From Escherichia phage ES2-BCU-3, in sequence record PV733669.1: 53,728 nucleotides of DNA. The stretch is one strand, 5' to 3'. The notes beneath the pieces are model-generated. The model saw only the letters and a list, made by a program, of their open reading frames with translations. It was not told the origin of the DNA and did not search any database. This document shows positions 1 through 53,728 of this stretch, in pieces. The position numbers and the translations under genes were made by a program. Every line of letters starts with the position of its first letter. Position 1 is the first letter of the stretch.

Positions 1-127
1 TACCTATGACAGCCCACCGAATACTGCTGCCGGTGTCTCATTCTATCTTGGCTTCAGAAGGCTACAACAATATAGGTGAGTTGGCAGCAGCACTTGAAGA
101 CCGTGGTTCAGACGTTTGGGTTGTTGG
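1..127. repeat. Terminal direct repeat, copy 1 (identical to 53602..53728)
   Basis: Bases 1..127 match the last 127 bases of the window exactly; consistent with an assembly overlap of a circular or circularly permuted genome. Confidence 0.9.
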
Positions 128-344
128 CGGTGCACAGTTAATACTTGCGGCTCTCGAAGAGCATGCTAAAGGTACACTCCGTGTTGACAACATGTTTATC
201 AGTACAATCAAAGAAGCAGGTCCAAGTGATATATTAATGGACCGTAGCAAATTAATGATGTACATTGATAGCGACTTCACTTATAATGATGAATATGTTG
301 ATAACAAATCTGTGCTGATACAGCGTTACCGGAGTGTAAAATGA
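1..344 (+). CDS. Dihydrofolate reductase, 3' portion (same frame as 53274..53601 across the wrap-around)
   Basis: Frame is continuous with the ORF at the window end; contains VWVVGGAQL resembling the DHFR GGxxxY region; stop TGA at 342..344 overlaps the next ATG (ATGA). Confidence 0.7.
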   Translation, partial: PMTAHRILLPVSHSILASEGYNNIGELAAALEDRGSDVWVVGGAQLILAALEEHAKGTLRVDNMFISTIKEAGPSDILMDRSKLMMYIDSDFTYNDEYVDNKSVLIQRYRSVK

Positions 345-2072: not shown

Positions 2073-2104
2073 CCGAGCTATCCGGATTGACGAGGACAAT
2101 ATCC

Positions 2105-2401
2105 ATGGCAAAATTGAAAAGTACCCGTGACGCAACAGAAGAACTGTTGAGCACGATGCGTCGTATTAAACTCGAACCTCTGGAGATAATGCAACGGGCT
2201 ATTACACAGGCTGAAGCCGAAAGTGATTATAAAGCCATGATGGACGGCGCTCTTGGTATCATGCCATACATGTACCCTAAACTGAAAGAGTCTGTTGTTA
2301 AAGCAGACATCGACCAGACACTTAACGGTAACGGCGTAAACCTGAACATTACTATCGGCGACCAAAAAGTTAACGTCGACGATGAGGATAAGGAAGAGTA
2401 A
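2105..2401 (+). CDS. terS: Putative terminase small subunit
   Basis: Small ORF immediately upstream of the large terminase with TAATG junction; ATG 2105 preceded by GAGGA (track ORF starts at TTG 2087). Assignment by position only. Confidence 0.35.
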   Translation: MAKLKSTRDATEELLSTMRRIKLEPLEIMQRAITQAEAESDYKAMMDGALGIMPYMYPKLKESVVKADIDQTLNGNGVNLNITIGDQKVNVDDEDKEE

Positions 2402-28652: not shown

Positions 28653-30623
28653 TTAGTGTGCCTCATCCCAGTTCATACCTATTTGCGCATCTGTAAGAAC
28701 AGGAACACGGAGTGGTAATACAGTTTCCATGACCTTTACAAAGTCTTTAAATCCTGCTTCTGCACTCTTAGTGTTTGGGATAGAGAAGTTTAATTCATCG
28801 TGTACTGTAAGACGTGGAACACCAATCTCGTCAAAGTACCCGTCCTCGTAACCTTTCAGCATACTGGCTTTCATCTGGTCCGCAGAAGAACCTTGAAGGA
28901 CTCGGTTGATTGCTTTGTGGGTGTTAGCCAGTTTAATGTTACCACGGTTGTAGGTAGCAAGAGCTTCATCTTTCGGAAGCGGAGTAAAGCCTTGTCCGCC
29001 CCATTCAGGCACCCACAAATCAAACCACGTTTTGCGGCCCATTATAGTTTCAACGTAACCCTGTGAGTAACATAGCTCTTCATAGTGTTTCATTGTTGCA
29101 CCGATGAATGGTGCACCTTGGTGGTAAGCCGCAAGGATTGGTTCTGCTTCTTCAGGAGTCATAGCCAGCTTACGGGCAAGCGCTTTAAGCATCATGCCAT
29201 ATAACAGACCGAAGTTAATTGTCTTCGCTGGTTTACGTTCTATAATGTGACCTGAGGCTTCCTTAATAATGTCGACCATAACAGCGTGGTAATCTGCTTC
29301 CGGGTTAGCCGCAAAAATTGCTCGTAACTCATCAGCACCCGGTCCGACTGCAAAATGCGCCATGAATCGATACTCGATTTGGGCGTAGTCGGCGGAAGCC
29401 CATCTGTGTCCAAGGTCCGGTACGAAACAAGAACGAACGAGTGGTCCCAATACTTTGTGTCGAGACGGTATATTCTGCAGATTAGGGTCAGATGAGCTAA
29501 ACCGACCACTAACGGTTCCGCCGTCATCACCGCGCATTTGATGGAATTGACCGTGAAGGAAGCCATTTGTATTCATCCCCAAGATGTAGCCACGAATGAA
29601 CGTGGACTGGATTTTCTCATAGGACTTAATCTCGGAAATAAGCTCTGCAAACGGATGATGCAGGCCTGCAAGAAAGTCCGCCGTAAATGATGGGTTACCT
29701 GCTTTAGTTCTGCCATACTCCAGACCTAAATGGTCAAAGGCAAGAGCAAGGTCACTACCCGAGTTGACGTTAACATTGAAACCAAGCTGGTCACGTATCT
29801 GCTTGTGCATCTTCTTAATCTCCTCGGACAATCTGTCGTCGGCGACCTTCGCTGCATCCAAGTCAACACGTACGCCTGCAAAACGCATTTTCAACATTAA
29901 TGGAATGAGCTTGCACTCCATATAAAACACGTCAGTTAAAGCCCAGCGTTGAAGTAAAGGCCACTGGGCTTTCATGATGTGGATTGGTAAGTCCGCATCT
30001 GATTCTGCATAGTAGCCCACAAGACGTGGAGGCGTTTTGTAGATGTACTTACGGGCTTCACCTGTAGGTTTACACCCGTAAGCTTCCGCAATCCACTCAT
30101 ACATTTCTGCTGAGTCTTTGCCTTCACCTACATATTTTCTTCCAAGTCCTTCCAACGCCACACGCGCACCTGGATCGAGAAGAGCTTCTGCATATTGAAC
30201 ATCCATGCACAGTCCTTTGACTTCCACGCCTTCTGCAGAAAGCCAGCCCAGGTCATATGTGATGTTAGCACCGACTTTAGTCTGCTCAGGTCGCGAAAGT
30301 TCCCGTCGTAACCAACCAAATACTTGCTCAACTGGTAGGTTATCCTCTGCTCCGAGTTCGTGTCGTATTGGGTAGTAAGCTTTGAATCCGTTGTCAGTGG
30401 CGACACTAACTCCAACGATATGACCTTCCCGCCTGGCCCAACCAGAACCATTTGTGTCCATCCCTGGGTCCCATGTTTCACAGTCAATACCGATAAGCTT
30501 CGCAGAAGACAAATCCGGGTAATGCGCGCGCGGCCGCCATCCAGTATCCCTGACATGCGGAATAGGACGGTTGATAGGTTTAACATTCTTGACCCCTTCG
30601 AATCCATCAAAAAGAAAACTCAT
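28653..30623 (-). CDS. DNA polymerase I (family A) with 3'-5' exonuclease domain
   Basis: Exo motifs IGIDCETWD, ITYDLGWL, YAESDADL; polymerase motifs A (DYAQIEYR), B (RKPAKTINFGLLYGM), C (VHDELNF). Confidence 0.85.
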   Translation of the reverse strand: MSFLFDGFEGVKNVKPINRPIPHVRDTGWRPRAHYPDLSSAKLIGIDCETWDPGMDTNGSGWARREGHIVGVSVATDNGFKAYYPIRHELGAEDNLPVEQVFGWLRRELSRPEQTKVGANITYDLGWLSAEGVEVKGLCMDVQYAEALLDPGARVALEGLGRKYVGEGKDSAEMYEWIAEAYGCKPTGEARKYIYKTPPRLVGYYAESDADLPIHIMKAQWPLLQRWALTDVFYMECKLIPLMLKMRFAGVRVDLDAAKVADDRLSEEIKKMHKQIRDQLGFNVNVNSGSDLALAFDHLGLEYGRTKAGNPSFTADFLAGLHHPFAELISEIKSYEKIQSTFIRGYILGMNTNGFLHGQFHQMRGDDGGTVSGRFSSSDPNLQNIPSRHKVLGPLVRSCFVPDLGHRWASADYAQIEYRFMAHFAVGPGADELRAIFAANPEADYHAVMVDIIKEASGHIIERKPAKTINFGLLYGMMLKALARKLAMTPEEAEPILAAYHQGAPFIGATMKHYEELCYSQGYVETIMGRKTWFDLWVPEWGGQGFTPLPKDEALATYNRGNIKLANTHKAINRVLQGSSADQMKASMLKGYEDGYFDEIGVPRLTVHDELNFSIPNTKSAEAGFKDFVKVMETVLPLRVPVLTDAQIGMNWDEAH

Positions 30624-31618
30624 TGTCCTGCCCTCACGTACGCAAGTACAACTGTACGCGTGTCGTTCTCCATCTTAAGCGCCTGACTTCCTAGTCCAAT
30701 ACGTTGCATGCCTTTTGCAAGTTTGCTCACTTGACTTATAACACAGTTAAATGGCTTTGTAAACTTAGTTGACTCAAAGTTGATGTCAACAGTCATCTTT
30801 GGAATCACATCGTCTGGAAGGTTAGCCTTTGCCTTGCTTTCGCTTATAACCTGCAAGATTGCTTGACCTTCGTCGTAACCCGTAAGCTGGTCCATAACTT
30901 CCAGGAACTCAGGTGTGATGTCTTCCATGTTCATTTCCATGCTGAAGAACTTGGAGATGTCTGGCCATGTTGCCGCAAGCACAGGTGAATCCATCTGCAC
31001 GTTATCTTCAAACCCGAAGAACATCTGGCCGCGAGTATAACCTACACTTGTGGGTTCCATCTTCAGCTTAACCAAAGCATCAAGCATTGGCTTTGAAATA
31101 GCACATTCAAATTCAAAGTCAACGTTAAGCTTCTCACGAATCATATACTTACCATTTGTCGCGTAAGCATAGCCATCGCGTAAAAGTAATGATGTCGCCC
31201 AGACTTGTGGAGCCTCGCTAGGTACCCATTTTGCGAGAGCTGATAAAACTGGGAGGAGTTCTCCATGTGCGGAGTACCACGTATTGACTGAAGTAACTGG
31301 TGGCAGAACTTCAGATAAGCATTGCATTCTTGTCTTAAGAACTCCTGCTGTGACAGTGAGGTTCCCTCCGGCGGTGATATTGAAAGTAATCTCTTTAGTC
31401 CGTGCAGCATTAACGGCCTTGCGAAATGATTCAGCATCAACTTGTATGTCTGGGAAACCTGGCGATGGTACTCGTAATAATACGTTCTTGTAGAACGAGT
31501 GCATGACTTCCTTGTCCACCCATAGCTTGCCCATAAGACCGCTATCATTGTACTTGACAGGACGAACCCTTTCAACGATTTTCTGTAAGGCTTTGGTGTC
31601 ATAGTTAAATTTGCCCAT
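30620..31618 (-). CDS. Hypothetical replication-associated protein
   Basis: 332-aa ORF ATGA-coupled to the polymerase gene; no motif recognised. Confidence 0.5.
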   Translation of the reverse strand: MGKFNYDTKALQKIVERVRPVKYNDSGLMGKLWVDKEVMHSFYKNVLLRVPSPGFPDIQVDAESFRKAVNAARTKEITFNITAGGNLTVTAGVLKTRMQCLSEVLPPVTSVNTWYSAHGELLPVLSALAKWVPSEAPQVWATSLLLRDGYAYATNGKYMIREKLNVDFEFECAISKPMLDALVKLKMEPTSVGYTRGQMFFGFEDNVQMDSPVLAATWPDISKFFSMEMNMEDITPEFLEVMDQLTGYDEGQAILQVISESKAKANLPDDVIPKMTVDINFESTKFTKPFNCVISQVSKLAKGMQRIGLGSQALKMENDTRTVVLAYVRAGQ

Positions 31619-31650: not shown

Positions 31651-32535
31651 TTATACAGCCATTGGTAACTTAATGTTTGCCATCGGCGTATATTCCGCCA
31701 TCAGGCCGTTCAAATCATCAACGCGGAAGTTGAAGATTGATTTGTCGTAGATTGCGTTGATTGATGGTCGACGACGTGCGTTAGTGTCATACATCTCATC
31801 AGCGTTCTCTACGATACGCTCAAGAAACTGCTTTGAAGCGTCAACATGGTTTTCGTAGATATGGTAATCACCCAGGGTAACAGTCAGGTCACCAATGGCA
31901 CAACCTACTTCAGCCGCCAACATAATCTGCAGTAACTGATGCAGGAGAATGTCATGTGGCAGGCCAAGAATCACGTCAGCGCTACGCATATGGAACATCA
32001 GCTCAAGCTCATTTGCCCCATTAACAAAACACTGGAAGCCATGATAGCAAGGCGGTAGGGCCATGCTCGGCATCTCTTGTGGGTTCCATGCCGTTACATA
32101 CATACGGCGGTCTGTAGGATTGGTCTTCAGCGTATGCACCAGCTCTTGCAACTGGTCTGTCAGCTCGCCGTTCTTCCAGTACTCTTTAACCCATTGAGCA
32201 CCATATACAGGACCTAAGTCACGGTTATCAGGTGTGCCCCAACGTTTGTTTGCGTCCTGCAGGTTAGCTTCCCACCAGTTACAACCCAACATCTTCAAAG
32301 TATCGACGTTGGTAATGCCGTTGATAAAGCAATAAAGCTCAGCACCTACAGCTTTGATGTTAACAGGCTTGAAGATTGGAACCATCAGCTTGTTGTCTTT
32401 AAATGCCAGTTTGAAAGCAGTGCCAAACAGGCGGCGAGTACCGGTACCGGTGCGGTCACCTGACTGCTCACCCTTATTCAGGATGGTAGAAATCAGGTCG
32501 TCGTACAGTGCGTCAACAGTTTGGTATGTTTTCAT
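31651..32535 (-). CDS. thyA: Thymidylate synthase (ThyA family)
   Basis: Motifs DLGPVYGAQW, RSADVILGLP, DYHIYENH (Asn retained, dUMP-type) and active-site Cys in LPPCY (canonical PCH). Co-occurring DHFR favours a true synthase. Confidence 0.75.
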   Translation of the reverse strand: MKTYQTVDALYDDLISTILNKGEQSGDRTGTGTRRLFGTAFKLAFKDNKLMVPIFKPVNIKAVGAELYCFINGITNVDTLKMLGCNWWEANLQDANKRWGTPDNRDLGPVYGAQWVKEYWKNGELTDQLQELVHTLKTNPTDRRMYVTAWNPQEMPSMALPPCYHGFQCFVNGANELELMFHMRSADVILGLPHDILLHQLLQIMLAAEVGCAIGDLTVTLGDYHIYENHVDASKQFLERIVENADEMYDTNARRRPSINAIYDKSIFNFRVDDLNGLMAEYTPMANIKLPMAV

Positions 32536-33128
32536 TACAGCAGTTCCAGTTGGTTAGGGTTAGTGTGTGCATTGATAATTGCCTGGATGTCAGGTTTGAC
32601 CCAACCTTCTGGCTTAACAATGTCCTGGCCTGATTTGTGCTTACTGTTGCTTGCATCAGGTTTAGCACGTTCTTTCGCCATGTTGGCTTTCTGTACAGCG
32701 TCCCATGCATCATCCAGCGGCCAGTTGTTTGCAGCACACCAGTTGATAAGATGGATGATAAGCTGTGCCAGGCGGTCGCAGTGAGTGTCTTCGGTATCTT
32801 TAACATATACACGAAGACCCTTGGCATCAAACTTCTCCATCCAGCTGCATGGGTCAATGAAATGAATAGGGTATTCAAATTCATTTGAGAACCAGGTAGT
32901 CTGGTCATACAGGTAGAGAGTACCTGCAGCGATATAGATAAGGTCAACAATGCCGTCCAGGAATTCAGCTTTGTCGCCTTCCTTGATGGCTTTCTCAATC
33001 TCATCCATCTCTTCGATGAGACGGTCATAGCGAAGTTTGAACTCAGGCTTACCGCCTTCACTGATAGGTTTGAGGTCAAACTTCTGGTGGAAAGCAGTTA
33101 CACCTGCAGCAATTTTACTGAATCGCAT
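32535..33128 (-). CDS. MazG-like nucleoside triphosphate pyrophosphohydrolase (putative)
   Basis: EEMDEIEKAIKEGDKAEFLDGIVDLIY resembles the MazG/all-alpha NTP-PPase acidic helix; ATG at 33128 with AAGGAG 7 nt upstream (track ORF extends to 33200); TAATG junction with thyA. Confidence 0.45.
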   Translation of the reverse strand: MRFSKIAAGVTAFHQKFDLKPISEGGKPEFKLRYDRLIEEMDEIEKAIKEGDKAEFLDGIVDLIYIAAGTLYLYDQTTWFSNEFEYPIHFIDPCSWMEKFDAKGLRVYVKDTEDTHCDRLAQLIIHLINWCAANNWPLDDAWDAVQKANMAKERAKPDASNSKHKSGQDIVKPEGWVKPDIQAIINAHTNPNQLELL

Positions 33129-33513
33129 CACGGAGCTCCTTACATACAGTTTCGATGAATTTACGTTTGGTCTCAGTAGACCAGATAATATGACGGGCAC
33201 GTTCTACAACGTCGTAACGGTCTTTACCCACAGGAAAGGGAACAATGAAAAGGCCAGTACGGGAGATGCGCTTGATATACGGAAACTTGCAGCGCATGGT
33301 TGTTTCAAATGCTGTGAAGGCACGTTGTACGCCAGCTGTGAATTTTACCTTATCAAACTCATATTCAATGTCTTTGGCATACTGACACACTTTGGCGAAA
33401 GCATCTGCAGGCAGATAGTCTTCACGACCAGTGTTATTGACAAAATCTATTTGACCCTGCAGACGCAGAATCCAGATGTGGTAATATGATTCGGCAACAC
33501 GTTGTAAGTTCAT
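33115..33513 (-). CDS. Hypothetical protein
   Basis: 132-aa ORF with AGGAGAG RBS and its own promoter. Confidence 0.5.
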   Translation of the reverse strand: MNLQRVAESYYHIWILRLQGQIDFVNNTGREDYLPADAFAKVCQYAKDIEYEFDKVKFTAGVQRAFTAFETTMRCKFPYIKRISRTGLFIVPFPVGKDRYDVVERARHIIWSTETKRKFIETVCKELRDAIQ

Positions 33514-37505: not shown

Positions 37506-37970
37506 CTAGTCTCCTGCAAGGTCTCCAGGTTCAAACTCATCGTAGATAACTCCTGCTCCCACAACCAGGTGAGAGACGGCGTTTGCCATGCTGTCTTTCC
37601 ACTTGGATTGCTTAGCCTTGTGTACAAAGGCTACAACACGTCTGACGTGTAAATTGGCAGTAAGCATCTTCGCACAATGTTCGCACGGAGGATATGTGAT
37701 GTATACAGTAACCGGGCCTAACGAGGAAGCGTCTAACTCCTTCCTTATATTAGCTAGTGCATTTACCTCACTATGTATAGTGAGAGCGTTCTTAAGCTCA
37801 TTAGGCACCTCCTTTAAGGCGTCTAACTGCTCAGGCAAACCGTTATAACCTGTTGATATAATTCGCTTTTTGGCATCGACGATTACACATCCAACCTGGC
37901 GCTTAGGGTCCTTAGACCAGCTAGCAATCTCCTGAGCCACTCGTAAAAAACGCTTATCCCACTTATCCAT
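37506..37970 (-). CDS. dCMP deaminase
   Basis: Zinc-binding motifs HSEVNA and PCEHC; ATG at 37970 with GGAGGA RBS (track ORF starts at TTG 37988). Confidence 0.75.
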   Translation of the reverse strand: MDKWDKRFLRVAQEIASWSKDPKRQVGCVIVDAKKRIISTGYNGLPEQLDALKEVPNELKNALTIHSEVNALANIRKELDASSLGPVTVYITYPPCEHCAKMLTANLHVRRVVAFVHKAKQSKWKDSMANAVSHLVVGAGVIYDEFEPGDLAGD

Positions 37971-37981
37971 AGTATCCTCCG

Positions 37982-38010
37982 CATACAAAAACAGGAGCCG
38001 AAGCTCCTGT
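37982..38010 (-). terminator. Rho-independent terminator with UUCG tetraloop, minus strand
   Basis: Minus strand reads ACAGGAGC-UUCG-GCUCCUGU followed by UUUUUGUAU; stems at 37991..37998 and 38003..38010. Confidence 0.6.
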
Positions 38011-45480: not shown

Positions 45481-47983
45481 TATTTTAGGGCTGAAGTTCT
45501 TCAAACCAGAAGGCATCCCTCAAGTCTTCAAAGATATGAAGCGCTGGGGTATCTTCGAATTAACGTACGAAGACGATAAGCTCGAAGTACAATCAAAACC
45601 TAAGAAACCGGCAAGGGCCCCGTCCGGGCGTTCCTTTAGCACCACTGTACCTGAAGAGTGGATGACATTCGACGAAGCATTGAATCGATGCATTCGCAAC
45701 CGTGAGATGAAGATTAAAGCTGTACAGGGTAATATAACCTTTGTACCAGCATTGATTGTTCCTCGCCAATGGTACTTTGTTGACCTGGACAACCATGAAG
45801 ACAACCCAGATATTGAGGCAACCCACAAAGCCATAATTGAAGGGACTCGCGGTGCTTATGCTGAGACATCTATCTCGGGTAAAGGTCAGCACATCGCTAT
45901 ACCATTACCATGGACTGCAGCAACGTCCAAAGAGAAAGACGACCTGCTGGACATCAAAATCCAGAAGGCTGAGATGTTCCTGGTAATGACAGGTAACGTG
46001 TTGAGTGAGTTCAATGCCAACCCTGTATCAGCCAAGCAATGGCATGAAGCTATTGAGCGATTCTTCCGTGATGCTTCAGCTCCTGATATTGATGTACAGT
46101 TTGAGCAAGACCCTGACCTGGGTGAAGAGCATGACAAAGAGCTGTATGCTCAGTTAGCCGAGAATACTCGTTGGGCATTAGAACACCCAATGAATGAGCA
46201 TGCACCTGATGGTGTTGGTGTAAGTAATGATGGTTCCGAACGTCTTAGCCGTATATTGAAAGACTTACTTCGTGTTACCCGTAATTACGAAGTCACACAG
46301 CGCATCTTTATGTCAAGTGCTGCAGCTCAGTACTCAGGACGACGTGCAAGCCGTATCAATTTGAGTGAGACACAATATCTGCAATGGTTCAGCCGTGTAG
46401 GTAAGACTGTACTCAAAGAGATGCAACGTGACGGACTGTTTGTCAAGACTGCATTTGCTCTGGACATTAACAAAGAGCTGATGAAGAAGTCTGGCATTAA
46501 ACTTGCCGACAATGTAGAGTTCAAGGTTGATGAAGACATTCTACCGTCTGAAGAGTTTGTACGTACAGCCCCAACAGGTTTCAAAGCTCTTATCGCCGAA
46601 GTGCAAAGCAATATTGCACCAAGCAAACGAGTGAATGACTACGCCATCGGCACCGCACTCAATATCCTGAGTAACTGTGCAGGACGCAAGTATGTTTGCC
46701 CTGTTGAAGGTCATGCAAACTTCCTGGTGACTAACATCATCCTTGTGGGTGGTTCATCTATCGGTAAGTCACTTTATACCGAGATGTTCCCGCAGATTCA
46801 GGCCGGCCTTCCAGAAGGTTCACCGCTGAGTCTGTTACGCATACCCCGTGAGCAGACGTTTGCAACCAGGACATTCGCCGAGATGATGGCTAACCCGTCA
46901 TTCCACTCGGTACAACTGTTCTACCCTGAATTTGGCCTGGCATTAGGTTCTGGTTTACGCATGAACCCTAACAACCCAGACAACTTCCAGAAGGCTTTAA
47001 TGGATGCTTCAACCAAGCGTAAGGTTGGCGGTATCTTAACAGGCATTAAACGTGCCAATGCTGAGAATGATGTTAAGGCGGTTCACGAACCTTGTTACTC
47101 TATCTTTGGTGACTCGACTCAAGAGCTTATCCTTGACAACACTCGTAAGCAAGACTTCTCATCTGGCTTCTTACCTCGCTTCCTGTTCATTCCGAACTAC
47201 GAACGAGCAGACTTTGCACAACCTGAGAAGGTAGGACGCCGTAAAGAAGTTCGCCGAGTACAGTTCAGCAAGGATATGATTGAACAGCTCGAGGCAATTG
47301 CTTATGTCAATGCTATTCCACCAAACGGACGGCTGAGACACGAACCAATCGCCATTTACGATGAGTCCGACGATGATGACATCTTGTATGAGTACCAATG
47401 CAAGATTAATGACATGCGTCGCTACTATCGTGATAACGAAGTTGCATCAGCCTTTGTGGGTCGTATGGGAGAATATGTCTTCAATATCGCCTCACTAATT
47501 GGCTTGCTTGATAATTGGGACAATCCTGTAATGACTCGTGATAACATTGAATGGGCATACAAATATGTTCTTCGTTGTATCACAGCCTGGGTTAACAATG
47601 CCAGCAAGGTAATTGCTCCACCTACAACTGACGCTGAAGTGGTTGACGGCTTCCTCAAAGTGTATCGGGACCTTTTGGCCCAGTACAACAAGAAAGGCTG
47701 GAAAGGTATTGTCAAGCATTATCCTGATAACATTGTACGCAATCTCAAGGAAGACCACCTCAAGATGAATGGCTTATCAATATATGCTATTCGTCAAAGT
47801 ATGGGCTGGTTTAAGACTTCTTACAACTTTGAGATTAAGAACAAGGCAATTGACGGCATGCTCAAGGATATGATAGACCAGGACTACCTTGCTGTCCAAG
47901 TATATAAGCCACCCACAGGTAAGTCGTCCAATTTGTACTGCTTAACTGAACGCGGTTACTCAGAAGCCAAGAAACTTAAATAA
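45455..47983 (+). CDS. Primase-helicase (AEP-type primase/polymerase domain fused to SF3-type helicase)
   Basis: N-terminal VDLDNH and SGKGQHIAIP resemble the archaeo-eukaryotic primase catalytic core; C-terminal P-loop VGGSSIGKS with downstream acidic motifs typical of D5/SF3 helicases. Confidence 0.6.
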   Translation: MTMTSQPSDILGLKFFKPEGIPQVFKDMKRWGIFELTYEDDKLEVQSKPKKPARAPSGRSFSTTVPEEWMTFDEALNRCIRNREMKIKAVQGNITFVPALIVPRQWYFVDLDNHEDNPDIEATHKAIIEGTRGAYAETSISGKGQHIAIPLPWTAATSKEKDDLLDIKIQKAEMFLVMTGNVLSEFNANPVSAKQWHEAIERFFRDASAPDIDVQFEQDPDLGEEHDKELYAQLAENTRWALEHPMNEHAPDGVGVSNDGSERLSRILKDLLRVTRNYEVTQRIFMSSAAAQYSGRRASRINLSETQYLQWFSRVGKTVLKEMQRDGLFVKTAFALDINKELMKKSGIKLADNVEFKVDEDILPSEEFVRTAPTGFKALIAEVQSNIAPSKRVNDYAIGTALNILSNCAGRKYVCPVEGHANFLVTNIILVGGSSIGKSLYTEMFPQIQAGLPEGSPLSLLRIPREQTFATRTFAEMMANPSFHSVQLFYPEFGLALGSGLRMNPNNPDNFQKALMDASTKRKVGGILTGIKRANAENDVKAVHEPCYSIFGDSTQELILDNTRKQDFSSGFLPRFLFIPNYERADFAQPEKVGRRKEVRRVQFSKDMIEQLEAIAYVNAIPPNGRLRHEPIAIYDESDDDDILYEYQCKINDMRRYYRDNEVASAFVGRMGEYVFNIASLIGLLDNWDNPVMTRDNIEWAYKYVLRCITAWVNNASKVIAPPTTDAEVVDGFLKVYRDLLAQYNKKGWKGIVKHYPDNIVRNLKEDHLKMNGLSIYAIRQSMGWFKTSYNFEIKNKAIDGMLKDMIDQDYLAVQVYKPPTGKSSNLYCLTERGYSEAKKLK

Positions 47984-47989
47984 ATACAA

Positions 47990-48027
47990 GGGCTTAGGTG
48001 TTATATGCATCTAAGTCCTTCTTTTTT
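47990..48027 (+). terminator. Rho-independent terminator
   Basis: Stem gggcttag(47990..47997)/ctaagtcc(48011..48018) with one G-U pair, 13-nt loop, then TTCTTTTTT. Confidence 0.55.
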
Positions 48028-48034
48028 AAGCTCT

Positions 48035-48342
48035 TTTTTCCGGCGGAGGCAATGCATATAATCATATATTTGAATATATATCACTTAAACCTTTGTTTTA
48101 TATACTCTTTTCGAATCCATAATCCATATAGCTTTCTTTAAATAATTAAGGGGGTAATAAGGGTACACAAGACCAGATAAAGGGGTAGATATTATTATTT
48201 ATTTATTATATATATTATATATATTTATATATTAGATAAAGAGTAAGTAAAACAGCTACTTAGAAGGCTAGAATCCATATTCACGGGAATATAGTTATAT
48301 GGATTACAGACCGGATAAAGAAAATCCTCCGCCGGCGGAAAA
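48035..48342. other. AT-rich block bounded by inverted repeats (candidate replication origin)
   Basis: Inverted repeats tttttccggcggagg(48035..48049) and cctccgccggcggaaaa(48326..48342); a 45-bp run of only A/T (48191..48235); internal aatccatat/atatggatt inverted repeats; two AGGGGTA direct repeats. Confidence 0.45.
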
Positions 48343-48379
48343 TTTAAAAAAGTCGGATTGCTAAATAAATTCGTAGACG

Positions 48380-48408
48380 TTTACACTGTGATTAATATGT
48401 AGTACAAT
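48380..48408 (+). promoter_or_regulatory. Sigma70-like promoter (TTTACA-17-TACAAT)
   Basis: TTTACA 48380..48385; TACAAT 48403..48408. Confidence 0.45.
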
Positions 48409-48458
48409 AATCACCAATATCCCAAATTAGCAGAATTTTCAACAGGATTGAATACAAT

Positions 48459-48887
48459 ATGGTTAACATTCGAGTAAAAGGCCAAAACTTTGAGCGTAAA
48501 ATGGCAAAAAAATTCAATGAATCATTTGGATTGAGTGTTGAACGCAATCTTCAACAGTCTATTAATGGCGGGGATGACTTACTCGGGGTACCGTTTTTCA
48601 GCGTTGAGCTTAAAAAACACAATACAAAAGCCATCGGTACGTGGTGGCGTCAATGTGAGGAGTCAGCAAAGCGTCATGATAAGACGCCTGTACTAATATA
48701 CGAACTTCCACGCCAAAAGCCAGTCGTTGTAATGCGACGCAGTGACGTGGATGTTGGTATATTACCACTTGGTACAACTTTCAAAGAGGCAACTAACAGG
48801 CTCTTTGTGGGCTTGGTAGAGCTAACATGGGAACAATTTTGCCAGGTCTACAACTTTTACGTTGCGCCTGGCGTTGATGTCAGTTAA
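48459..48887 (+). CDS. Hjc-like Holliday junction resolvase (PD-(D/E)XK), putative
   Basis: KGQNFERKMAKKF...G and DDLLGVPFFSVELKK parallel archaeal Hjc motifs KGxxxER and D...ExK. Confidence 0.5.
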   Translation: MVNIRVKGQNFERKMAKKFNESFGLSVERNLQQSINGGDDLLGVPFFSVELKKHNTKAIGTWWRQCEESAKRHDKTPVLIYELPRQKPVVVMRRSDVDVGILPLGTTFKEATNRLFVGLVELTWEQFCQVYNFYVAPGVDVS

Positions 48888-49068
48888 CAGGTTTTAGCTC
48901 GTCGCAGATAACACGCTGGTTTTGTGCAGGCACTAATCCCAGTTCTAACAAAGTGTATGGACTATCGGCAGCACATTGTTCTACGGTAGTCCATTCAGGT
49001 TTCGCTTCGACAACTTTGTATTCACAGTCGTGTGCAGCGATACAAGTAGCAAGAATCAAACCAATCAT
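48880..49068 (-). CDS. Hypothetical small protein
   Basis: 62-aa ORF with hydrophobic N-terminus. Confidence 0.4.
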   Translation of the reverse strand: MIGLILATCIAAHDCEYKVVEAKPEWTTVEQCAADSPYTLLELGLVPAQNQRVICDELKPVN

Positions 49069-49314
49069 TTATTTACTCCTGATGCCAAGTTTATTGAACA
49101 ACCAAATACACATATCAACCCAGGTTACTGGTACAGTTTTCGGGGGTTGATAAGACCATGCTTTTGCAGCTCGCTCCGCATTTTCTTCTCGCCTGCGCGC
49201 TTGGCGTAATACTTGACTGTCAGTAATGCCGGCAGAAAAAACATCGGCAATGTGAGATAAATCGCGTCGATGAACACGTCCAACCAAATCATTCAGTTGC
49301 TCCTCAGAAAACAT
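49069..49314 (-). CDS. Hypothetical protein
   Basis: 81-aa ORF; GGAG RBS. Confidence 0.45.
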   Translation of the reverse strand: MFSEEQLNDLVGRVHRRDLSHIADVFSAGITDSQVLRQARRREENAERAAKAWSYQPPKTVPVTWVDMCIWLFNKLGIRSK

Positions 49315-49426
49315 AACTCAACACCATACATACGATAACAATACCAATTACAATCCGCCACATGCTACGATTAACAGCATATACCGGATTCTCAGTAGTA
49401 TACTCAACAACATGTTTACGGACCAT
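49304..49426 (-). CDS. Small hydrophobic peptide (40 aa), not in the ORF track
   Basis: ATG at 49426 preceded by AAGGAGG (6-nt spacer); encodes MVRKHVVEYTTENPVYAVNRSMWRIVIGIVIVCMVLSYVF with one TM-like helix; stop TGA 49304..49306. Confidence 0.4.
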   Translation of the reverse strand: MVRKHVVEYTTENPVYAVNRSMWRIVIGIVIVCMVLSYVF

Positions 49427-49448
49427 AATCGGCCTCCTTGTGGGTTAA

Positions 49449-49493
49449 TTCAATCATGAGGACTTTCATCAAATCCTCATTGTTGAATTACTC
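49449..49493 (-). promoter_or_regulatory. Conserved-flank intergenic hairpin (early operon element 1)
   Basis: Minus strand reads GAGTAA-TTCAACA-[ATGAGGA...TCCTCAT]-GATTGAA; 7-bp stem between the upstream stop and the next RBS. Confidence 0.5.
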
Positions 49494-49793
49494 ATCATCA
49501 GCAGTATAATTGGAAATATCTTCCGCCAATGTTTCAATGTCAAACACCGCATTCAAGAAAGAATGCTCAACAACAGCTTTATCAAGTTCATCATCATAAT
49601 AAAGCTCAATGTAACTACCATACAACTCTTCTACACTTTCAATTGCAGGATAAATCTCATGCACTGCAGCATAGAAATCATCAAAATTATCAAAACAACG
49701 ACAATTTGTCAACTCTTGACCTTGCATCATTTCAACTAACTCATTAGTCAGATAAAAATAGCAATTGTGCTGGTTAATAATGAATGGTGTCAT
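49488..49793 (-). CDS. Hypothetical acidic protein
   Basis: ATG at 49793 with GAGGAGAG RBS (track ORF starts at TTG 49820); strongly acidic. Confidence 0.5.
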   Translation of the reverse strand: MTPFIINQHNCYFYLTNELVEMMQGQELTNCRCFDNFDDFYAAVHEIYPAIESVEELYGSYIELYYDDELDKAVVEHSFLNAVFDIETLAEDISNYTADDE

Positions 49794-49818
49794 GTTTCTC
49801 TCCTCAGTGATATTAATC

Positions 49819-49839
49819 AAGTCCCGGATACCGAGACTT
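49819..49839 (-). promoter_or_regulatory. Intergenic hairpin (early operon element 2)
   Basis: 9-bp stem aagtcccgg/ccgagactt with 3-nt loop; lies upstream of the 49793 start. Confidence 0.4.
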
Positions 49840-49847
49840 TGTTAATT

Positions 49848-50048
49848 TCACTCAATCATCACCTGAGCTACTATTATACACTCTTTATTGAATCTGGTAA
49901 ACACTTTACCTGCATTGGTACGTTTTGCACCAGCTTTTAATGCAGTTTGTGTCCAGACATTCCACTCTTCAGTTGTCAAAAATTGTTGGTCAACTTTTGG
50001 AGGTAACTGTTGAGCTATATGAACTGTAGTAAATTTGATTAATGGCAT
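49848..50048 (-). CDS. Hypothetical protein
   Basis: ATG at 50048 (MPLIKF...), 10-nt overlap with the upstream gene; track ORF starts at 50078. Confidence 0.4.
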   Translation of the reverse strand: MPLIKFTTVHIAQQLPPKVDQQFLTTEEWNVWTQTALKAGAKRTNAGKVFTRFNKECIIVAQVMIE

Positions 50049-50275
50049 ACACCACCATAACTTTGGATTTGTACACAAAAACTTCTGAAATTGTGAAGAG
50101 GAATATCGTCACAATTAATGAAGTATTGACCAGTTAAAGATTTCAAACCAAACCGCACATAACCTTTGTTAAGGTTGAGACGCACAATCTCACAAAATAA
50201 ATCATATGCGCCCAATTCCTGAACTTTTGGATGATTGATGTCTGGGTTAAAGTCAATCAGCATTTCTACTTTCAT
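50039..50275 (-). CDS. Hypothetical protein
   Basis: ATG at 50275 with AGGAG RBS (track ORF starts at TTG 50302). Confidence 0.5.
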   Translation of the reverse strand: MKVEMLIDFNPDINHPKVQELGAYDLFCEIVRLNLNKGYVRFGLKSLTGQYFINCDDIPLHNFRSFCVQIQSYGGVCH

Positions 50276-50296
50276 GTTTCTTCTCCTGTTGAATAA

Positions 50297-50347
50297 TTTC
50301 AATCATGAACTATCGCAACTTTGATAGTTCATTGTTGAAACTATTGC
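50297..50347 (-). promoter_or_regulatory. Conserved-flank intergenic hairpin (early operon element 3)
   Basis: Minus strand reads TAG-TTTCAACA-[ATGAACTATC...GATAGTTCAT]-GATTGAAA; 10-bp stem 50305..50314/50323..50332. Confidence 0.5.
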
Positions 50348-50529
50348 AATTTTGTACTAATTTGAATCGTGAGTCTGAATTGTTCAAGTAAGTCGCTAAC
50401 GCGAGAATTATCTTCAACACTAGACTCAATTTGATCACTAACAATTTGAGCATTTGATTCAAGAAGTTCAATCAAGTGCGCCAATTCGTCTGCTGTCAGT
50501 TTAAGTTCTTTCATAATTTTAACAACCAT
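50341..50529 (-). CDS. Hypothetical small protein
   Basis: 62-aa acidic ORF. Confidence 0.45.
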   Translation of the reverse strand: MVVKIMKELKLTADELAHLIELLESNAQIVSDQIESSVEDNSRVSDLLEQFRLTIQISTKLQ

Positions 50530-50774
50530 CCCATTACCAGTCCAAGGTCAGCAATATCATCACTGTCACGTTCACCGTCTTTGAATTCAGTACAGAACAT
50601 TCGCATGATTTGTGCCAAATTCATATTGATGACATACGCATGAATTTTCAAGTCTTCAAGAGGAGTGTCAAGTACTAATTGACCAAACTCCTGAAAACTT
50701 TCGTCCCAATTCAAGAACCATTCACGTGCGTAATGATGCAACTTGTCCATCAGGTCTTTGTCGTCAAGTGTCAT
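50511..50774 (-). CDS. Hypothetical protein
   Basis: 87-aa ORF; RBS AGGAG upstream of ATG 50774. Confidence 0.5.
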   Translation of the reverse strand: MTLDDKDLMDKLHHYAREWFLNWDESFQEFGQLVLDTPLEDLKIHAYVINMNLAQIMRMFCTEFKDGERDSDDIADLGLVMGWLLKL

Positions 50775-50796
50775 GTTTTTTACTCCTGTTGATTAA

Positions 50797-50842
50797 TAAT
50801 TTCAATCCAGACCTCTCGTAAGAGGTCTGTCAGAAATTACTC
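50797..50842 (-). promoter_or_regulatory. Conserved-flank intergenic hairpin (early operon element 4)
   Basis: Minus strand reads GAGTAA-TTTCTGAC-[AGACCTCT-UACG-AGAGGTCT]-GGATTGAAA; 9-bp stem 50808..50816/50821..50829. Confidence 0.5.
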
Positions 50843-51403
50843 TTCAGTTTCTTGTTCCGGAGCTTTATCATCAGCTTTATCATCAGTTTTTACAACTGAT
50901 TTACCGTCAGTGATTTTACCGGATTTTACATCATTACGGTAGTATGACATATAAGACTGTACAACACGTTTTGCCTTAATATCATCATCTGCCATTTCAC
51001 AAGCTTTCATTGCATCTGCAAGTGCCAGCTTGGAATCTTCTTTGTCCAGCAAGTTGTAATCTTTGAACACGGTATAGCATGTGTCCTTAGTTGATGGACC
51101 AGTTGAAGTTTTACGGGTGCCACCAGTGCTGGATTTTTGTTTGACTGCAACATGCTGAACTTCAAGCTGATTGAGTTCATCAAACAATGCCTTCATCATC
51201 ACTTCTTTGGAATCTTTGATTGTGCAGGTAGTCTCATCATTGAGACTTTTAATCATTTTCAACAGTTGATTGCGTTCAAAATGCTGGAGAGCATTCTGCT
51301 GCACAATCATTGACGCCATAGTGTCGTCAGTTGTCAGACCGTCCATCACAGCTTCAACAGAAAACGCGGAAGTAATGTAAACGTAGTTGATTGCAGTAGT
51401 CAT
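50837..51403 (-). CDS. Hypothetical protein (188 aa)
   Basis: ORF with GAGAGGA RBS; Lys/Asp-rich C-terminus. Confidence 0.5.
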   Translation of the reverse strand: MTTAINYVYITSAFSVEAVMDGLTTDDTMASMIVQQNALQHFERNQLLKMIKSLNDETTCTIKDSKEVMMKALFDELNQLEVQHVAVKQKSSTGGTRKTSTGPSTKDTCYTVFKDYNLLDKEDSKLALADAMKACEMADDDIKAKRVVQSYMSYYRNDVKSGKITDGKSVVKTDDKADDKAPEQETEE

Positions 51404-51455
51404 GTTTGTATCCTCTCATTGATAGATTTTTGATTGTCAATCCTTGACAAGTAAG

Positions 51456-51501
51456 TCCAATCATGACAACTTTGGTAAGTTGTCATTGTTGGAAATTACT
51501 C
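51456..51501 (-). promoter_or_regulatory. Conserved-flank intergenic hairpin (early operon element 5)
   Basis: Minus strand reads GAGTAA-TTTCCAACA-[ATGACAACTT-ACCA-AAGTTGTCAT]-GATTGGA; stem 51464..51472/51477..51485; a second palindrome ttgtcaa/ttgacaa lies at 51433..51451. Confidence 0.5.
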
Positions 51502-51645
51502 TTGATATTTGACTACTTGTGACTGGATAAAATCAACACAATCGTCCACGTCCATTGACTCAAAGTCTGGAACTGGTCCATTGTTAATGTTGACACACCA
51601 CAGTCCCTCATTGTCATCATACCAAAGTGTATAATTGTCTTTCAT
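51496..51645 (-). CDS. Hypothetical small protein (first gene of the early minus-strand operon)
   Basis: ATG at 51645 with GAGGTGA RBS 6 nt upstream; track ORF extends to GTG 51699 through a hairpin. Confidence 0.45.
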   Translation of the reverse strand: MKDNYTLWYDDNEGLWCVNINNGPVPDFESMDVDDCVDFIQSQVVKYQE

Positions 51646-51675
51646 AATAGTCACCTCATGTATTAGTTTCCAGGT

Positions 51676-51699
51676 GTGACTACTGTTACCAATAGTCAC
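51676..51699 (-). promoter_or_regulatory. Leader hairpin with the same 5' flank as the intergenic hairpins
   Basis: Minus strand reads GTAATAGTTTCAACCA-[GTGACTA...TAGTCAC]; 7-bp stem 51676..51682/51693..51699. Confidence 0.4.
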
Positions 51700-51886
51700 T
51701 GGTTGAAACTATTACTTGTGTTACTATCAACAAGAAACATGTTAACCAGATTGTTAAAGAGCAAAAGACACCATTGACCATCTACCAGATGTGTCTGTTG
51801 ACTGGTTGAGTACTAACAACATAAGTAACTACATAAATCCTCCTGAACCATTCTTGTGTTGAATTGTTCAACACATTCAATAAATA

Positions 51887-51916
51887 TATAATAGTCCAAT
51901 CGCTATTGATTGTACA
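51887..51916 (-). promoter_or_regulatory. Candidate early promoter for the minus-strand small-gene operon
   Basis: TTGTACATAAA at 51910..51920 matches the recurring GTGTACATA -35 region; TATATA/TATTAT -10-like hexamers 17-18 nt away on the minus strand. Confidence 0.35.
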
Positions 51917-51966
51917 TAAAAGAATTGCAAGTTAGTGCAAGTATTTAGAAACGATAATCACTTGCG

Positions 51967-52226
51967 GTTGATAGTGGTTCTCGATTACAATTGATATAGT
52001 TACTCGAGTAATCACTTCGTTTGAAATGGTCGGCAGGGGTTATAGTTACATAGGGGTGCTATCTAATAGGGCCGGCGAAATTATTTATAAAAATATAATT
52101 TCAATCTGAATTGTAGACGCTTTGAACTACTTCGGCCGAAACTGCTACACGGGTAATAGTTACTCTGGTAATGATTGCGTTGGTAATAGTTCACAACGAA
52201 ATAGGGTGCGGGGGGTATAATCACTC
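51967..52226. repeat. Iteron-like array of about 13-bp direct repeats (consensus GGTAATAGTTACTC)
   Basis: Copies at 51993..52005 (gatatagttactc), 52039..52049 (gttatagttac), 52152..52165 (ggtaatagttactc), 52182..52194 (ggtaatagttcac); degenerate copies at 51967, 52006, 52167, 52214; inverted copy at 51707..51715; AT-rich tract 52081..52100. Confidence 0.55.
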
Positions 52227-52412
52227 TGTGTGACCAATTTTAAGCGCCGACGGATTTTTTTATTTTTTGCTCCTTTTTAGACTCCTAGTACTCAATCATC
52301 ATCATATCAATCACGATTGTGTTACCATAAAGCCTTTTGTACAGAAATTGGAGGCCCCTCCAAAAATTTTTTATATTTTTCTGGAATTGTGTAGACATCT
52401 GTTAAAAAGTGG

Positions 52413-53015: not shown

Positions 53016-53277
53016 AGCAAACATCCTCGACCTGCCAGTAATCGAAAAAGGCAAACATCTCGAAGTTACTGTTGCGTATGACGCAAAATGCCGTTTACGC
53101 AAGCTTCGTGGCGGCTTTATCACGCGAAACATACAGGCAACGGCCAAATTTGGCTGTTACGGTGAGTTGGATATTGATTCAGCTAAACATCAGCTTGAAC
53201 ACTTGCTTGCCAATAAGTATGGCGCTCGTCGTATTCGCTGGGAAATGTTCAAAATCGTTTCGGAGGTAGAGCTGTGA
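53008..53277 (+). CDS. Hypothetical protein
   Basis: 89-aa ORF overlapping neighbours at both ends. Confidence 0.45.
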   Translation: MTEANILDLPVIEKGKHLEVTVAYDAKCRLRKLRGGFITRNIQATAKFGCYGELDIDSAKHQLEHLLANKYGARRIRWEMFKIVSEVEL

Positions 53278-53728
53278 TTAATATCATGTTTGCAATGGGT
53301 CAGGAAGGCGAATTTGGCCGCTCGCTTGAACTGCACCGTAAGCTGGTTAGTGAAGCCAAAACCGCAGAAGAGGTCCGTCTGCTTCCATTATCCGGTCTCC
53401 CATGGAAGTGTCCGAGTGACATGCTGTTTTTCAGGACTATGACTAATTCAATCGCAACAGAACCAGGCTATAATGCCTTTGAGCAACTCCGGGGTCTCTT
53501 CCCACAGGAGCATCTGCTCAATATGATTCGCGATGTGACAAGCAGAATGGTCGGTCATAGTGTATTGTTAGCCGGTGTGAAAACGTATCAGACTATGAGC
53601 TTACCTATGACAGCCCACCGAATACTGCTGCCGGTGTCTCATTCTATCTTGGCTTCAGAAGGCTACAACAATATAGGTGAGTTGGCAGCAGCACTTGAAG
53701 ACCGTGGTTCAGACGTTTGGGTTGTTGG
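53274..53728 (+). CDS. Dihydrofolate reductase, 5' portion (runs off the window end; continues at 1..344)
   Basis: GTG 53274 overlapping the upstream stop (GTGA) with GGAGG 7 nt upstream (alternative ATG 53286); LPWKCPSDMLFFRTMT matches the DHFR PWxxPxDxxxF region. Confidence 0.7.
   Translation, partial: MINIMFAMGQEGEFGRSLELHRKLVSEAKTAEEVRLLPLSGLPWKCPSDMLFFRTMTNSIATEPGYNAFEQLRGLFPQEHLLNMIRDVTSRMVGHSVLLAGVKTYQTMSLPMTAHRILLPVSHSILASEGYNNIGELAAALEDRGSDVWVV
53602..53728. repeat. Terminal direct repeat, copy 2 (identical to 1..127)
   Basis: Exact 127-bp match to the window start. Confidence 0.9.

What the first reader, a model, noticed from the sequence alone, without database searches (positions are those of the whole stretch)
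1..127. 127-bp exact terminal duplication with DHFR reading across the junction
The identical ends and an uninterrupted reading frame across them indicate the contig represents a circular or circularly permuted genome of about 53,601 bp. A true direct terminal repeat inside a coding sequence would be unusual, so the duplication is more likely an assembly overlap. The physical termini are therefore not defined by this sequence.
Basis: seen in the sequence. Interest (0 to 1): 0.35.

Follow-up and report, generated by a model that had tools for sequence, protein, structure and literature searches.

The report
Assembler overlap on a closed phage contig
The identical 127-base ends are almost certainly an assembler's k-mer overlap on a closed contig of a known Salmonella phage species (Loughboroughvirus ZCSE2), not a biological repeat; the real DNA ends probably lie about 1.4 to 5.3 kb upstream of where the contig was opened.

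Summary
Bases 1-127 equal 53,602-53,728 exactly, and no other exact direct repeat of 16 nt or more exists in the 53,601-bp unit.

With one copy removed, the junction encodes an intact 223-aa DHFR-like protein. It is 221/223 identical to gp03 of Salmonella phage S144, with no gaps. Nine GenBank phage records (eight phages) and ten independent public assemblies carry this gene uninterrupted, and those assemblies break at scattered positions. Keeping both copies would frameshift the gene, because 127 = 3x42+1. An overlap of 127 bp is the published SPAdes end artefact.

The window is a complete unit genome of species Loughboroughvirus ZCSE2, 97.8% identical to and colinear with S144.

Two relatives deposited with both end copies (fHy-Eco03, 3,699 bp; vB_SalM_Sz, 4,263 bp) start and end in the same alignment columns, which map to window 48,334 and 52,248. 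That interval is 3,915 bp, exactly the repeat length PhageTerm gave for the 98.7%-identical phage AEV23.

The likely virion DNA is therefore linear, about 57.5 kb, with fixed ends and a 3.9-kb direct terminal repeat that the assembler collapsed. This is inferred from relatives, and S144 gel data partly disagree. Low interest.

The parts
1..127 (+). Left copy of the 127-bp contig-end overlap. It lies inside the DHFR-like gene, covering codons 110-152.
   Evidence: Exact match to 53,602-53,728; codon span.
53602..53728 (+). Right copy of the 127-bp overlap. One of the two copies should be trimmed.
   Evidence: With one copy, the junction aligns in a single piece over 99-100% of its length at 90.9-99.3% identity to internal positions of nine GenBank phage records representing eight phages.
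53274..53728 (+). N-terminal part of the DHFR-like gene. It has a GTG start with GGAGG upstream and runs off the contig end.
   Evidence: It corresponds to S144 ORF03, record positions 46,990-47,661.
1..344 (+). C-terminal part of the same DHFR-like gene. Bases 128-344 are the non-duplicated remainder, and the stop codon is at 342-344.
   Evidence: the joined product is 223 aa and 221/223 identical to S144 gp03 with no gap.
2087..2401 (+). Candidate small terminase subunit, assigned by position only.
   Evidence: PHROG 38712 of unknown function. The equivalent S144 ORF07 is annotated as putative TerS from its position (PMC7432712).
2401..3849 (+). Large terminase subunit.
   Evidence: Pfam Terminase_3 at 3.3e-7 and PHROG 979 at 2.2e-38.
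48334..52248 (+). Predicted direct terminal repeat region of the virion DNA, 3,915 bp. It holds a RusA-like resolvase gene and about ten small minus-strand genes, and is present once in this collapsed assembly.
   Evidence: The boundaries are homologous to the record starts and ends of fHy-Eco03 and vB_SalM_Sz. The equivalent AEV23 interval is 49,979-53,893, which is 3,915 bp and equals the PhageTerm repeat length in PMC12918118. This is inference by homology, not read evidence.
48322..48345 (.). Predicted left end. The cut would fall between 48,333 and 48,334, at the centre of the palindrome TCCGCC|GGCGGA.
   Evidence: The core YGCC|GGCG is conserved in both genera even where the upstream sequence has been replaced. 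The AEV23 record has foreign DNA fused exactly here.
52246..52262 (+). Predicted right end. The cut would fall between 52,248 and 52,249 in GCC|GACGGA followed by a T-run.
   Evidence: It lies in the gap between S144 clusters E and A, where the restriction analysis in PMC7432712 placed a physical end.
52071..52087 (+). Third copy of the motif GCCGRCGRA followed by an A/T run, 175 bp inside the predicted right end. Its role is unknown.
   Evidence: the pattern occurs only three times in the window, but it was derived after seeing these sites. An equivalent internal copy is present in fHy-Eco03 and Sz.

Best explanation
The 127-bp terminal duplication is a by-product of de Bruijn-graph assembly. 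The reads formed a closed path, and the assembler wrote it out as a linear contig whose last k bases (k = 127, the largest SPAdes k) repeat its first k. The opening point fell by chance inside a DHFR-like gene. Trimming one copy gives the true 53,601-bp non-redundant genome of a phage of species Loughboroughvirus ZCSE2.

A second layer is inferred from relatives. The packaged DNA is probably not circular or permuted. It is probably linear with fixed ends and a 3,915-bp direct terminal repeat spanning window 48,334-52,248, for a virion length of about 57,516 bp. Terminase would cut concatemers at the conserved GCC|GRCG sites at both boundaries. Short-read assembly collapses the two repeat copies, which is why the graph closes.
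For: Shown here for the artefact:
- The ends match exactly over 127 bp and are bounded only by the contig ends.
- There is no other exact direct repeat of 16 nt or more.
- The one-copy junction aligns in one piece over 99-100% of its length at 90.9-99.3% identity to internal positions of ZCSE2, SA173, S144, S1, AEV23, PK3 and SE4.
- The window unit is colinear with S144 at 97.8% identity, and the contig ends map to adjacent S144 bases 47,317 and 47,318.
- The junction protein is 223 aa and 221/223 identical to S144 gp03 with no gap.
- Keeping two copies frameshifts the gene.
- Ten independent assemblies of 52.3-53.7 kb carrying the identical TerL have that gene at widely different offsets, and all have an intact 223-aa DHFR gene.

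For the long terminal repeat:
- fHy-Eco03 carries an exact 3,699-bp repeat and vB_SalM_Sz an exact 4,263-bp repeat.
- Both records begin and end in the same alignment columns.
- Those columns give 3,915 bp in the window and in AEV23, equal to the published AEV23 PhageTerm value.
- The AEV23 record breaks at the predicted left end: foreign DNA abuts it on one side, and the record's other end stops 8 nt inside it.
- S144 digests place an end in the gap between clusters E and A. The predicted 5.66-kb SspI and 8.06-kb PacI terminal fragments fall in the reported size ranges.
Against: No reads and no assembler metadata are available, so k = 127 is an inference and coverage cannot be checked.

For the terminal-repeat layer, the S144 paper reports two new SspI bands of 5-7 kb. 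That fits a short repeat at the right boundary (5.66 + 6.94 kb) better than the 5.66 + 10.86 kb predicted by the long-repeat model. One Rosemountvirus paper reports 'COS' from PhageTerm. The boundary motif was defined after seeing the sites.
Confidence: 0.93

Rival explanations
1. The 127 bp are a genuine short direct terminal repeat of the T7 or N4 type, with the physical ends at window positions 1 and 53,728 inside the DHFR-like gene.
For: The identical ends formally satisfy the terminal-repeat criterion used by completeness tools. The S144 authors favoured 'short direct repeat ends' for this species.
Against: S144's physical end maps to the gap between clusters E and A, about 1.4 kb upstream, not inside ORF03. 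No relative has ends here. Independent assemblies break elsewhere and keep the gene intact. The length equals the known SPAdes artefact. The site has none of the boundary motif seen at the determined ends of relatives. Each virion would carry two truncated gene fragments.
Confidence: 0.02
2. The genome is packaged by a headful mechanism and is circularly permuted and terminally redundant. Under this reading there are no fixed ends and the closed assembly reflects the real population.
For: The assembly closes. A 127-bp overlap was interpreted this way for another phage in PMC8104045.
Against: In S144 the 12.6-kb SspI fragment is absent and replaced by discrete bands. fHy-Eco03 has PhageTerm ends confirmed by ScaI digestion. 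AEV23 has a PhageTerm terminal repeat. Two deposited relatives share identical boundary columns.
Confidence: 0.05
3. The ends are fixed but carry only a short repeat, or none, at a single site near window 52,248. This is the S144 authors' model. The 3.9-kb 'repeat' in relatives would then be a PhageTerm or annotation artefact.
For: The two new S144 SspI bands of 5-7 kb match 5,662 + 6,942 bp from a single site at the right boundary. The PacI band of 7-10 kb matches 8,056 bp.
Against: The mapped interval (3,915 bp) agrees exactly with AEV23's PhageTerm repeat length. The fHy-Eco03 repeat model reproduced its ScaI pattern. The left boundary is conserved, and foreign DNA is fused exactly to it in AEV23. 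I could not inspect the S144 gel.
Confidence: 0.15
4. The ends are cohesive (cos), as reported for the Rosemountvirus vB_SenM-1.
For: PhageTerm called 'COS' for vB_SenM-1.
Against: Fast versus slow cooling of S144 digests gave no difference, which excludes cohesive ends. The vB_SenM-1 record opens beside the DNA polymerase genes, next to a CDS that lacks a stop codon, which casts doubt on that end assignment.
Confidence: 0.02

Closest known systems
SPAdes-type k-mer overlap at the ends of circular contigs (the '127 bp artificial overlap', PMC5923482)
   Same: The prefix and suffix are exactly identical, the length is 127, the position is arbitrary (mid-gene), and removing one copy restores the sequence seen in independent genomes.
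   Different: The assembler and its k value for this contig are not documented. The match to the artefact rests on length and behaviour only.
Salmonella phages S144 and ZCSE2 (genus Loughboroughvirus, species Loughboroughvirus ZCSE2)
   Same: The window is 97.8% identical to and fully colinear with S144, and 98.0% identical to ZCSE2 over a 25-kb segment. The gene order is the same, including Ku-like, hypothetical, DHFR-like, thymidylate kinase and TerL genes.
   Different: It is a distinct isolate with about 2% divergence and a mosaic, hypervariable stretch just upstream of the predicted left end. The deposited records are opened at other arbitrary points.
Escherichia phage vB_EcoM_fHy-Eco03, a Rosemountvirus-like phage with a 3,699-bp direct terminal repeat determined by PhageTerm and ScaI digestion
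   Same: The repeat has the same gene content (resolvase plus small minus-strand genes) and the same boundary columns. Both boundaries have a CC|GG-type core followed by an A/T run, and there is an extra internal motif copy about 175 bp before the right end.
   Different: It is only about 75% identical in this region, its repeat is 216 bp shorter, and it has an extra small gene (gp01). Its termini were measured, whereas here they are inferred.
Short-terminal-repeat phages such as T7 (160 bp)
   Same: The identical ends are of a similar size.
   Different: T7-type repeats lie at defined terminase sites outside genes and are supported by read pile-ups. This one lies inside a conserved gene, and no relative has ends there.

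Membership tests
Assembler k-mer overlap on a closed contig | The prefix and suffix are exactly identical and bounded by the contig ends. | tested here: met
   127 of 127 bases match and it is the only match length.
Assembler k-mer overlap on a closed contig | The overlap length equals the assembler's k (127 for SPAdes). | tested here: inconclusive
   The length is 127, and PMC5923482 and PMC8104045 report the same figure for SPAdes contigs. The assembler used for this contig is unknown.
Assembler k-mer overlap on a closed contig | Removing one copy reproduces the sequence found uninterrupted in independent genomes. | tested here: met
Assembler k-mer overlap on a closed contig | Reads span the junction, with no coverage doubling or read-start peaks at the overlap. 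| not testable with these tools
   No reads are available.
Species Loughboroughvirus ZCSE2 | At least 95% nucleotide identity over the full genome length to a member of the species. | tested here: met
   97.8% identity over the whole 53,601 bp and colinear with S144, whose record is classified in that species. Identity to ZCSE2 is 98.0% over 25 kb.
Phages with fixed ends and long direct terminal repeats | Defined termini with doubled read coverage between them. | not testable with these tools
   Known only for relatives: fHy-Eco03 and AEV23.
Phages with fixed ends and long direct terminal repeats | The boundary sequences are homologous to those of relatives with determined termini. | tested here: met
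   The fHy-Eco03 and Sz starts and ends fall in the same columns. The resulting interval of 3,915 bp equals the AEV23 repeat length.
Phages with fixed ends and long direct terminal repeats | The terminal restriction fragments have the sizes predicted by the repeat model. | tested here: inconclusive
   In-silico S144 digestion gives 5,662 bp and 8,056 bp, which fit the published bands. The predicted 10,857-bp fragment does not match the second reported 5-7 kb band.
Genuine short terminal repeat at the contig ends | The physical ends coincide with the repeat boundaries. | tested here: not met
   The relatives' ends map 1.4-5.3 kb upstream of the contig opening point. Other assemblies break elsewhere. 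Direct read evidence is lacking.
Dihydrofolate reductase (Pfam PF00186) | The profile match is above the curated cut-off. | tested here: met
   28.7 bits against a cut-off of 25 and PHROG 316 at 4.6e-22. The PW..P.D..F and VxGGAQ segments align to the solved DHFR 2w3v. Enzyme activity was not tested.
Headful, circularly permuted packaging | No fixed ends; the restriction map looks circular apart from a sub-molar pac fragment. | tested here: not met
   This rests on the literature for close relatives only. [quoted passage not shown] Fixed ends were found in fHy-Eco03 and AEV23.

The most novel reading that the evidence does not exclude
The conserved site YGCC|GRCG followed by an A/T run, found at both boundaries of a repeat of about 3.9 kb plus a third unused copy 175 bp inside the right end, may be the terminase cleavage signal of the whole Loughboroughvirus/Rosemountvirus group. 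If so, the published 'short repeat' assignment for S144 and the 'COS' assignment for vB_SenM-1 would be mis-assignments, and nearly all deposited genomes of the group would lack about 4 kb of their true virion sequence.
Probability: 0.5. Interest if true: 0.25.

Novelty: not a real feature. Interest (0 to 1): 0.08.

Why it matters
The practical consequences are modest:
- One 127-bp copy should be trimmed before annotation. Otherwise the DHFR-like gene is split into two fragments and the genome length is overstated.
- The contig is a complete non-redundant genome of a known phage species.
- 'Closes into a circle' should not be read as circular permutation. This group most likely packages linear DNA of about 57.5 kb with a 3.9-kb terminal repeat, so 11 early-region genes are present twice per virion and the natural start of the genome is at window 48,334.

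This has minor value for correct deposition and for reconciling the conflicting packaging claims in the literature.

Tried and rejected
- I scanned IMG/VR and the metagenome collection for contigs that start at the predicted left end. This returned only two GenBank-derived contigs and one 1.7-kb contig with an internal match, so it was uninformative.
- A sequence search of TerL against PDB to type the terminase gave only spurious pentatricopeptide-repeat hits. I did not type the terminase clade myself. The S144 paper's tree places TerL near phage 9g, from which its authors inferred terminal repeats.
- The motif search finds exactly the three sites it was built from and nothing else. It shows uniqueness, not independent significance.
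- A 10,987-bp Logan contig starts 26 nt upstream of the predicted left end, and the PEA2-3 record ends 11 nt inside it. These are suggestive but not exact, so I gave them little weight.
- I rejected a genuine short terminal repeat at the contig ends and a tandem duplication retained in a circle, because the latter would frameshift the gene. I also rejected cos ends and headful permutation.

Full report
**Observation.** The first 127 bases of the window are identical to the last 127 (1-127 = 53,602-53,728). No other prefix/suffix length matches, and the seed occurs nowhere else. The 53,601-bp unit contains no other exact direct repeat of 16 nt or more, so chance is excluded.

Neither copy has an outer flank, because both are cut off by the contig ends. 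The length of the repeat is therefore set by how the contig was written out, not by sequence divergence.

An ORF starting at GTG 53,274, with GGAGG upstream, runs off the right end. It continues in frame from base 128 to a stop at 342-344 when the two copies are overlapped, giving 223 aa.

The DHFR label holds at family level:
- Pfam DHFR_1 scores 28.7 bits against a cut-off of 25.
- PHROG 316 matches at 4.6e-22.
- Many solved DHFRs match weakly. The PW..P.D..F and VxGGAQ segments align on either side of an insertion of about 35-40 aa.

**What the window is.** The junction with a single copy of the 127 bp aligns in one piece over 99-100% of its length. Identity is 90.9-99.3% to internal positions of Salmonella phages ZCSE2, SA173, S144, S1, PK3 and SE4 and of Klebsiella phage AEV23.

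The whole unit is colinear with S144 at 97.8% identity. The two contig ends map to adjacent S144 bases 47,317 and 47,318. S144's record is classified as Loughboroughvirus ZCSE2, and a further 25-kb segment gives 98.0% identity to both S144 and ZCSE2. The window is therefore a complete non-redundant genome of a new isolate of a known species.

**Why the duplication is an artefact.**
1. With one copy, the junction protein has the same length as S144 gp03 and is 221/223 identical with no gap. gp03 was detected by mass spectrometry in S144.
2. Because 127 = 3x42+1, keeping both copies head to tail shifts the frame and terminates the protein about 24 codons later.
3. The exact TerL protein of the window occurs on at least 24 public contigs. 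In the ten shown (Logan assemblies of sequencing runs and NCBI assemblies, 52.3-53.7 kb), the gene sits at offsets ranging from about 8 kb to about 45 kb from the contig start, so each assembly was opened at a different arbitrary place. All ten have an intact 223-aa DHFR-like gene.
4. 127 bp is the figure reported for artificial end overlaps of SPAdes contigs (PMC5923482; another example is PMC8104045). That SPAdes' largest k is 127 is my own knowledge, and the assembler of this contig is not documented.

**Where the real ends probably are.** A closed assembly does not imply a circular or permuted chromosome, because short-read assemblers collapse terminal repeats. The literature on relatives gives four results:
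- fHy-Eco03 is linear, 57,011 bp, with a 3,699-bp direct terminal repeat holding 11 genes. This was found with PhageTerm and is consistent with ScaI digestion.
- AEV23, a Loughboroughvirus, has a direct terminal repeat of 3,915 bp (PhageTerm is named in the paper's methods).
[quoted passage not shown] No cohesive ends were found, and a physical end was placed in the gap between clusters E and A.
- vB_SenM-1 was called 'COS' by PhageTerm, a claim at odds with the others.

I confirmed that the fHy-Eco03 record carries an exact 3,699-bp repeat. A third relative, vB_SalM_Sz (57,020 bp), carries an exact 4,263-bp repeat.

Both records begin in the same alignment column (GGCG.AAAA...) and end in the same column (...GCC or ...CCC, followed in the internal copy by an A/T run). 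In the window these columns are 48,334 and 52,248, an interval of 3,915 bp. The equivalent, gap-free AEV23 interval (49,979-53,893, 98.7% identical) is also 3,915 bp. That exactly matches the published AEV23 repeat length.

Three further observations fit this placement:
- In the AEV23 record, unrelated DNA carrying an IS5 transposase and a methyltransferase is fused exactly to the predicted left end. The other end of the record stops 8 nt inside it. This is the structure expected when a physical end interrupts an assembly.
- The predicted left end lies at the centre of the palindrome TCCGCC|GGCGGA. It sits between an intrinsic-terminator-like hairpin after the primase gene (47,988-48,020) and a promoter-like site (48,380-48,408).
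- The core at the left end is conserved in both genera even where the upstream sequence has been replaced by unrelated DNA. The right boundary with 60 nt on each side is 97.5-100% conserved among Loughboroughvirus sequences.

The pattern GCCGRCGRA followed by eight A/T bases occurs only three times in the window, at 48,331, 52,071 and 52,246. This pattern was written after seeing those sites.

The predicted virion DNA is 53,601 + 3,915 = 57,516 bp, close to the 57,011 and 57,020 bp of the two relatives with resolved ends. The mechanism is inferred from established long-terminal-repeat phages and was not tested here: terminase would cut concatemers at both boundary sites, and the repeat would be regenerated for each packaged genome.

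**Conflicting evidence.** I digested S144 in silico. The long-repeat model predicts SspI terminal fragments of 5,662 and 10,857 bp and a PacI terminal fragment of 8,056 bp.

The paper reports a PacI band of 7-10 kb and two new SspI bands of 5-7 kb. The PacI band and one SspI band fit. The second SspI band fits a short repeat at the right boundary (6,942 bp) better than the long-repeat prediction. The 500-bp band in the double digest is simply the 481 bp between the PacI site and the neighbouring SspI site.

I could not inspect the gel. I therefore hold the long-repeat model at about 0.7-0.75 and the short-repeat-at-52,248 model at about 0.15. Either way, the contig ends at 1 and 53,728 are not physical ends.

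**Verdict.** The 'circular or circularly permuted' reading is probably wrong, and the termini can be predicted from conserved boundaries. The feature itself is not biological. What surrounds it belongs to an already described phage species. Interest is low.

Noticed in passing
L005 25,894-27,637 (AEV23 record OR810919.1, positions 53,894-55,637): The deposited AEV23 genome ends with about 1.7 kb unrelated to its relatives, annotated as an IS5-family transposase and a methyltransferase. This DNA is fused exactly at the predicted left genome end. It is likely a chimeric assembly that inflates the reported 55,637-bp length. The record does not contain two repeat copies.
   Followed up: partly
window 48,040-48,316: There is an AT-rich, low-complexity stretch with TA and TTA runs just upstream of the predicted left end. 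It is mosaic: ZCSE2, S1 and one NCBI contig carry unrelated sequence here, and homology resumes only about 17 nt before the boundary.
   Followed up: partly
window 53,274-53,728 plus 128-344: The DHFR-like protein has two insertions relative to canonical DHFRs, about 20 aa at the N-terminus and about 35-40 aa after the PW..D..F motif. Its S144 and fHy-Eco03 orthologues were detected in purified virions by mass spectrometry.
   Followed up: no
L026 4,953-5,453 (Logan SRR27732228 contig, 54,429 bp): A related contig carries an HNH endonuclease gene (Pfam HNH_3) inserted between the predicted left end with its promoter and the resolvase gene, which places it inside the putative terminal repeat.
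   Followed up: no
L014, L016, L023 (NCBI assemblies GCA_022081115.1, GCA_041320715.1, GCA_034862665.1): Contigs of about 53 kb encoding a TerL identical to the window's occur inside what appear, from their WGS-style contig names, to be bacterial genome assemblies, and in many sequencing runs. The phage therefore appears to turn up often in isolate or sample sequencing.
   Followed up: no
window 31,651-33,200 and 37,506-37,988: The window encodes thymidylate-synthase-like, NTP-pyrophosphohydrolase-like and dCMP-deaminase genes. S144 and fHy-Eco03 DNA resists nearly all tested restriction enzymes except those with AT-only sites (PMC7432712, PMC8145870), which suggests an uncharacterised base modification.
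   Followed up: no
literature on the group (PMC7432712, PMC7503781, PMC8145870, PMC12918118): Packaging assignments for this phage group disagree: short terminal repeat for S144, COS for vB_SenM-1, and long terminal repeat for fHy-Eco03 and AEV23. Most deposited genomes of 52-54 kb are opened at arbitrary points and lack the second repeat copy.
   Followed up: partly
window 28,653-31,618 (minus strand): The family-A DNA polymerase is split into two adjacent ORFs of 656 and 332 aa. In S144 these are annotated as alpha and beta subunits.
   Followed up: no
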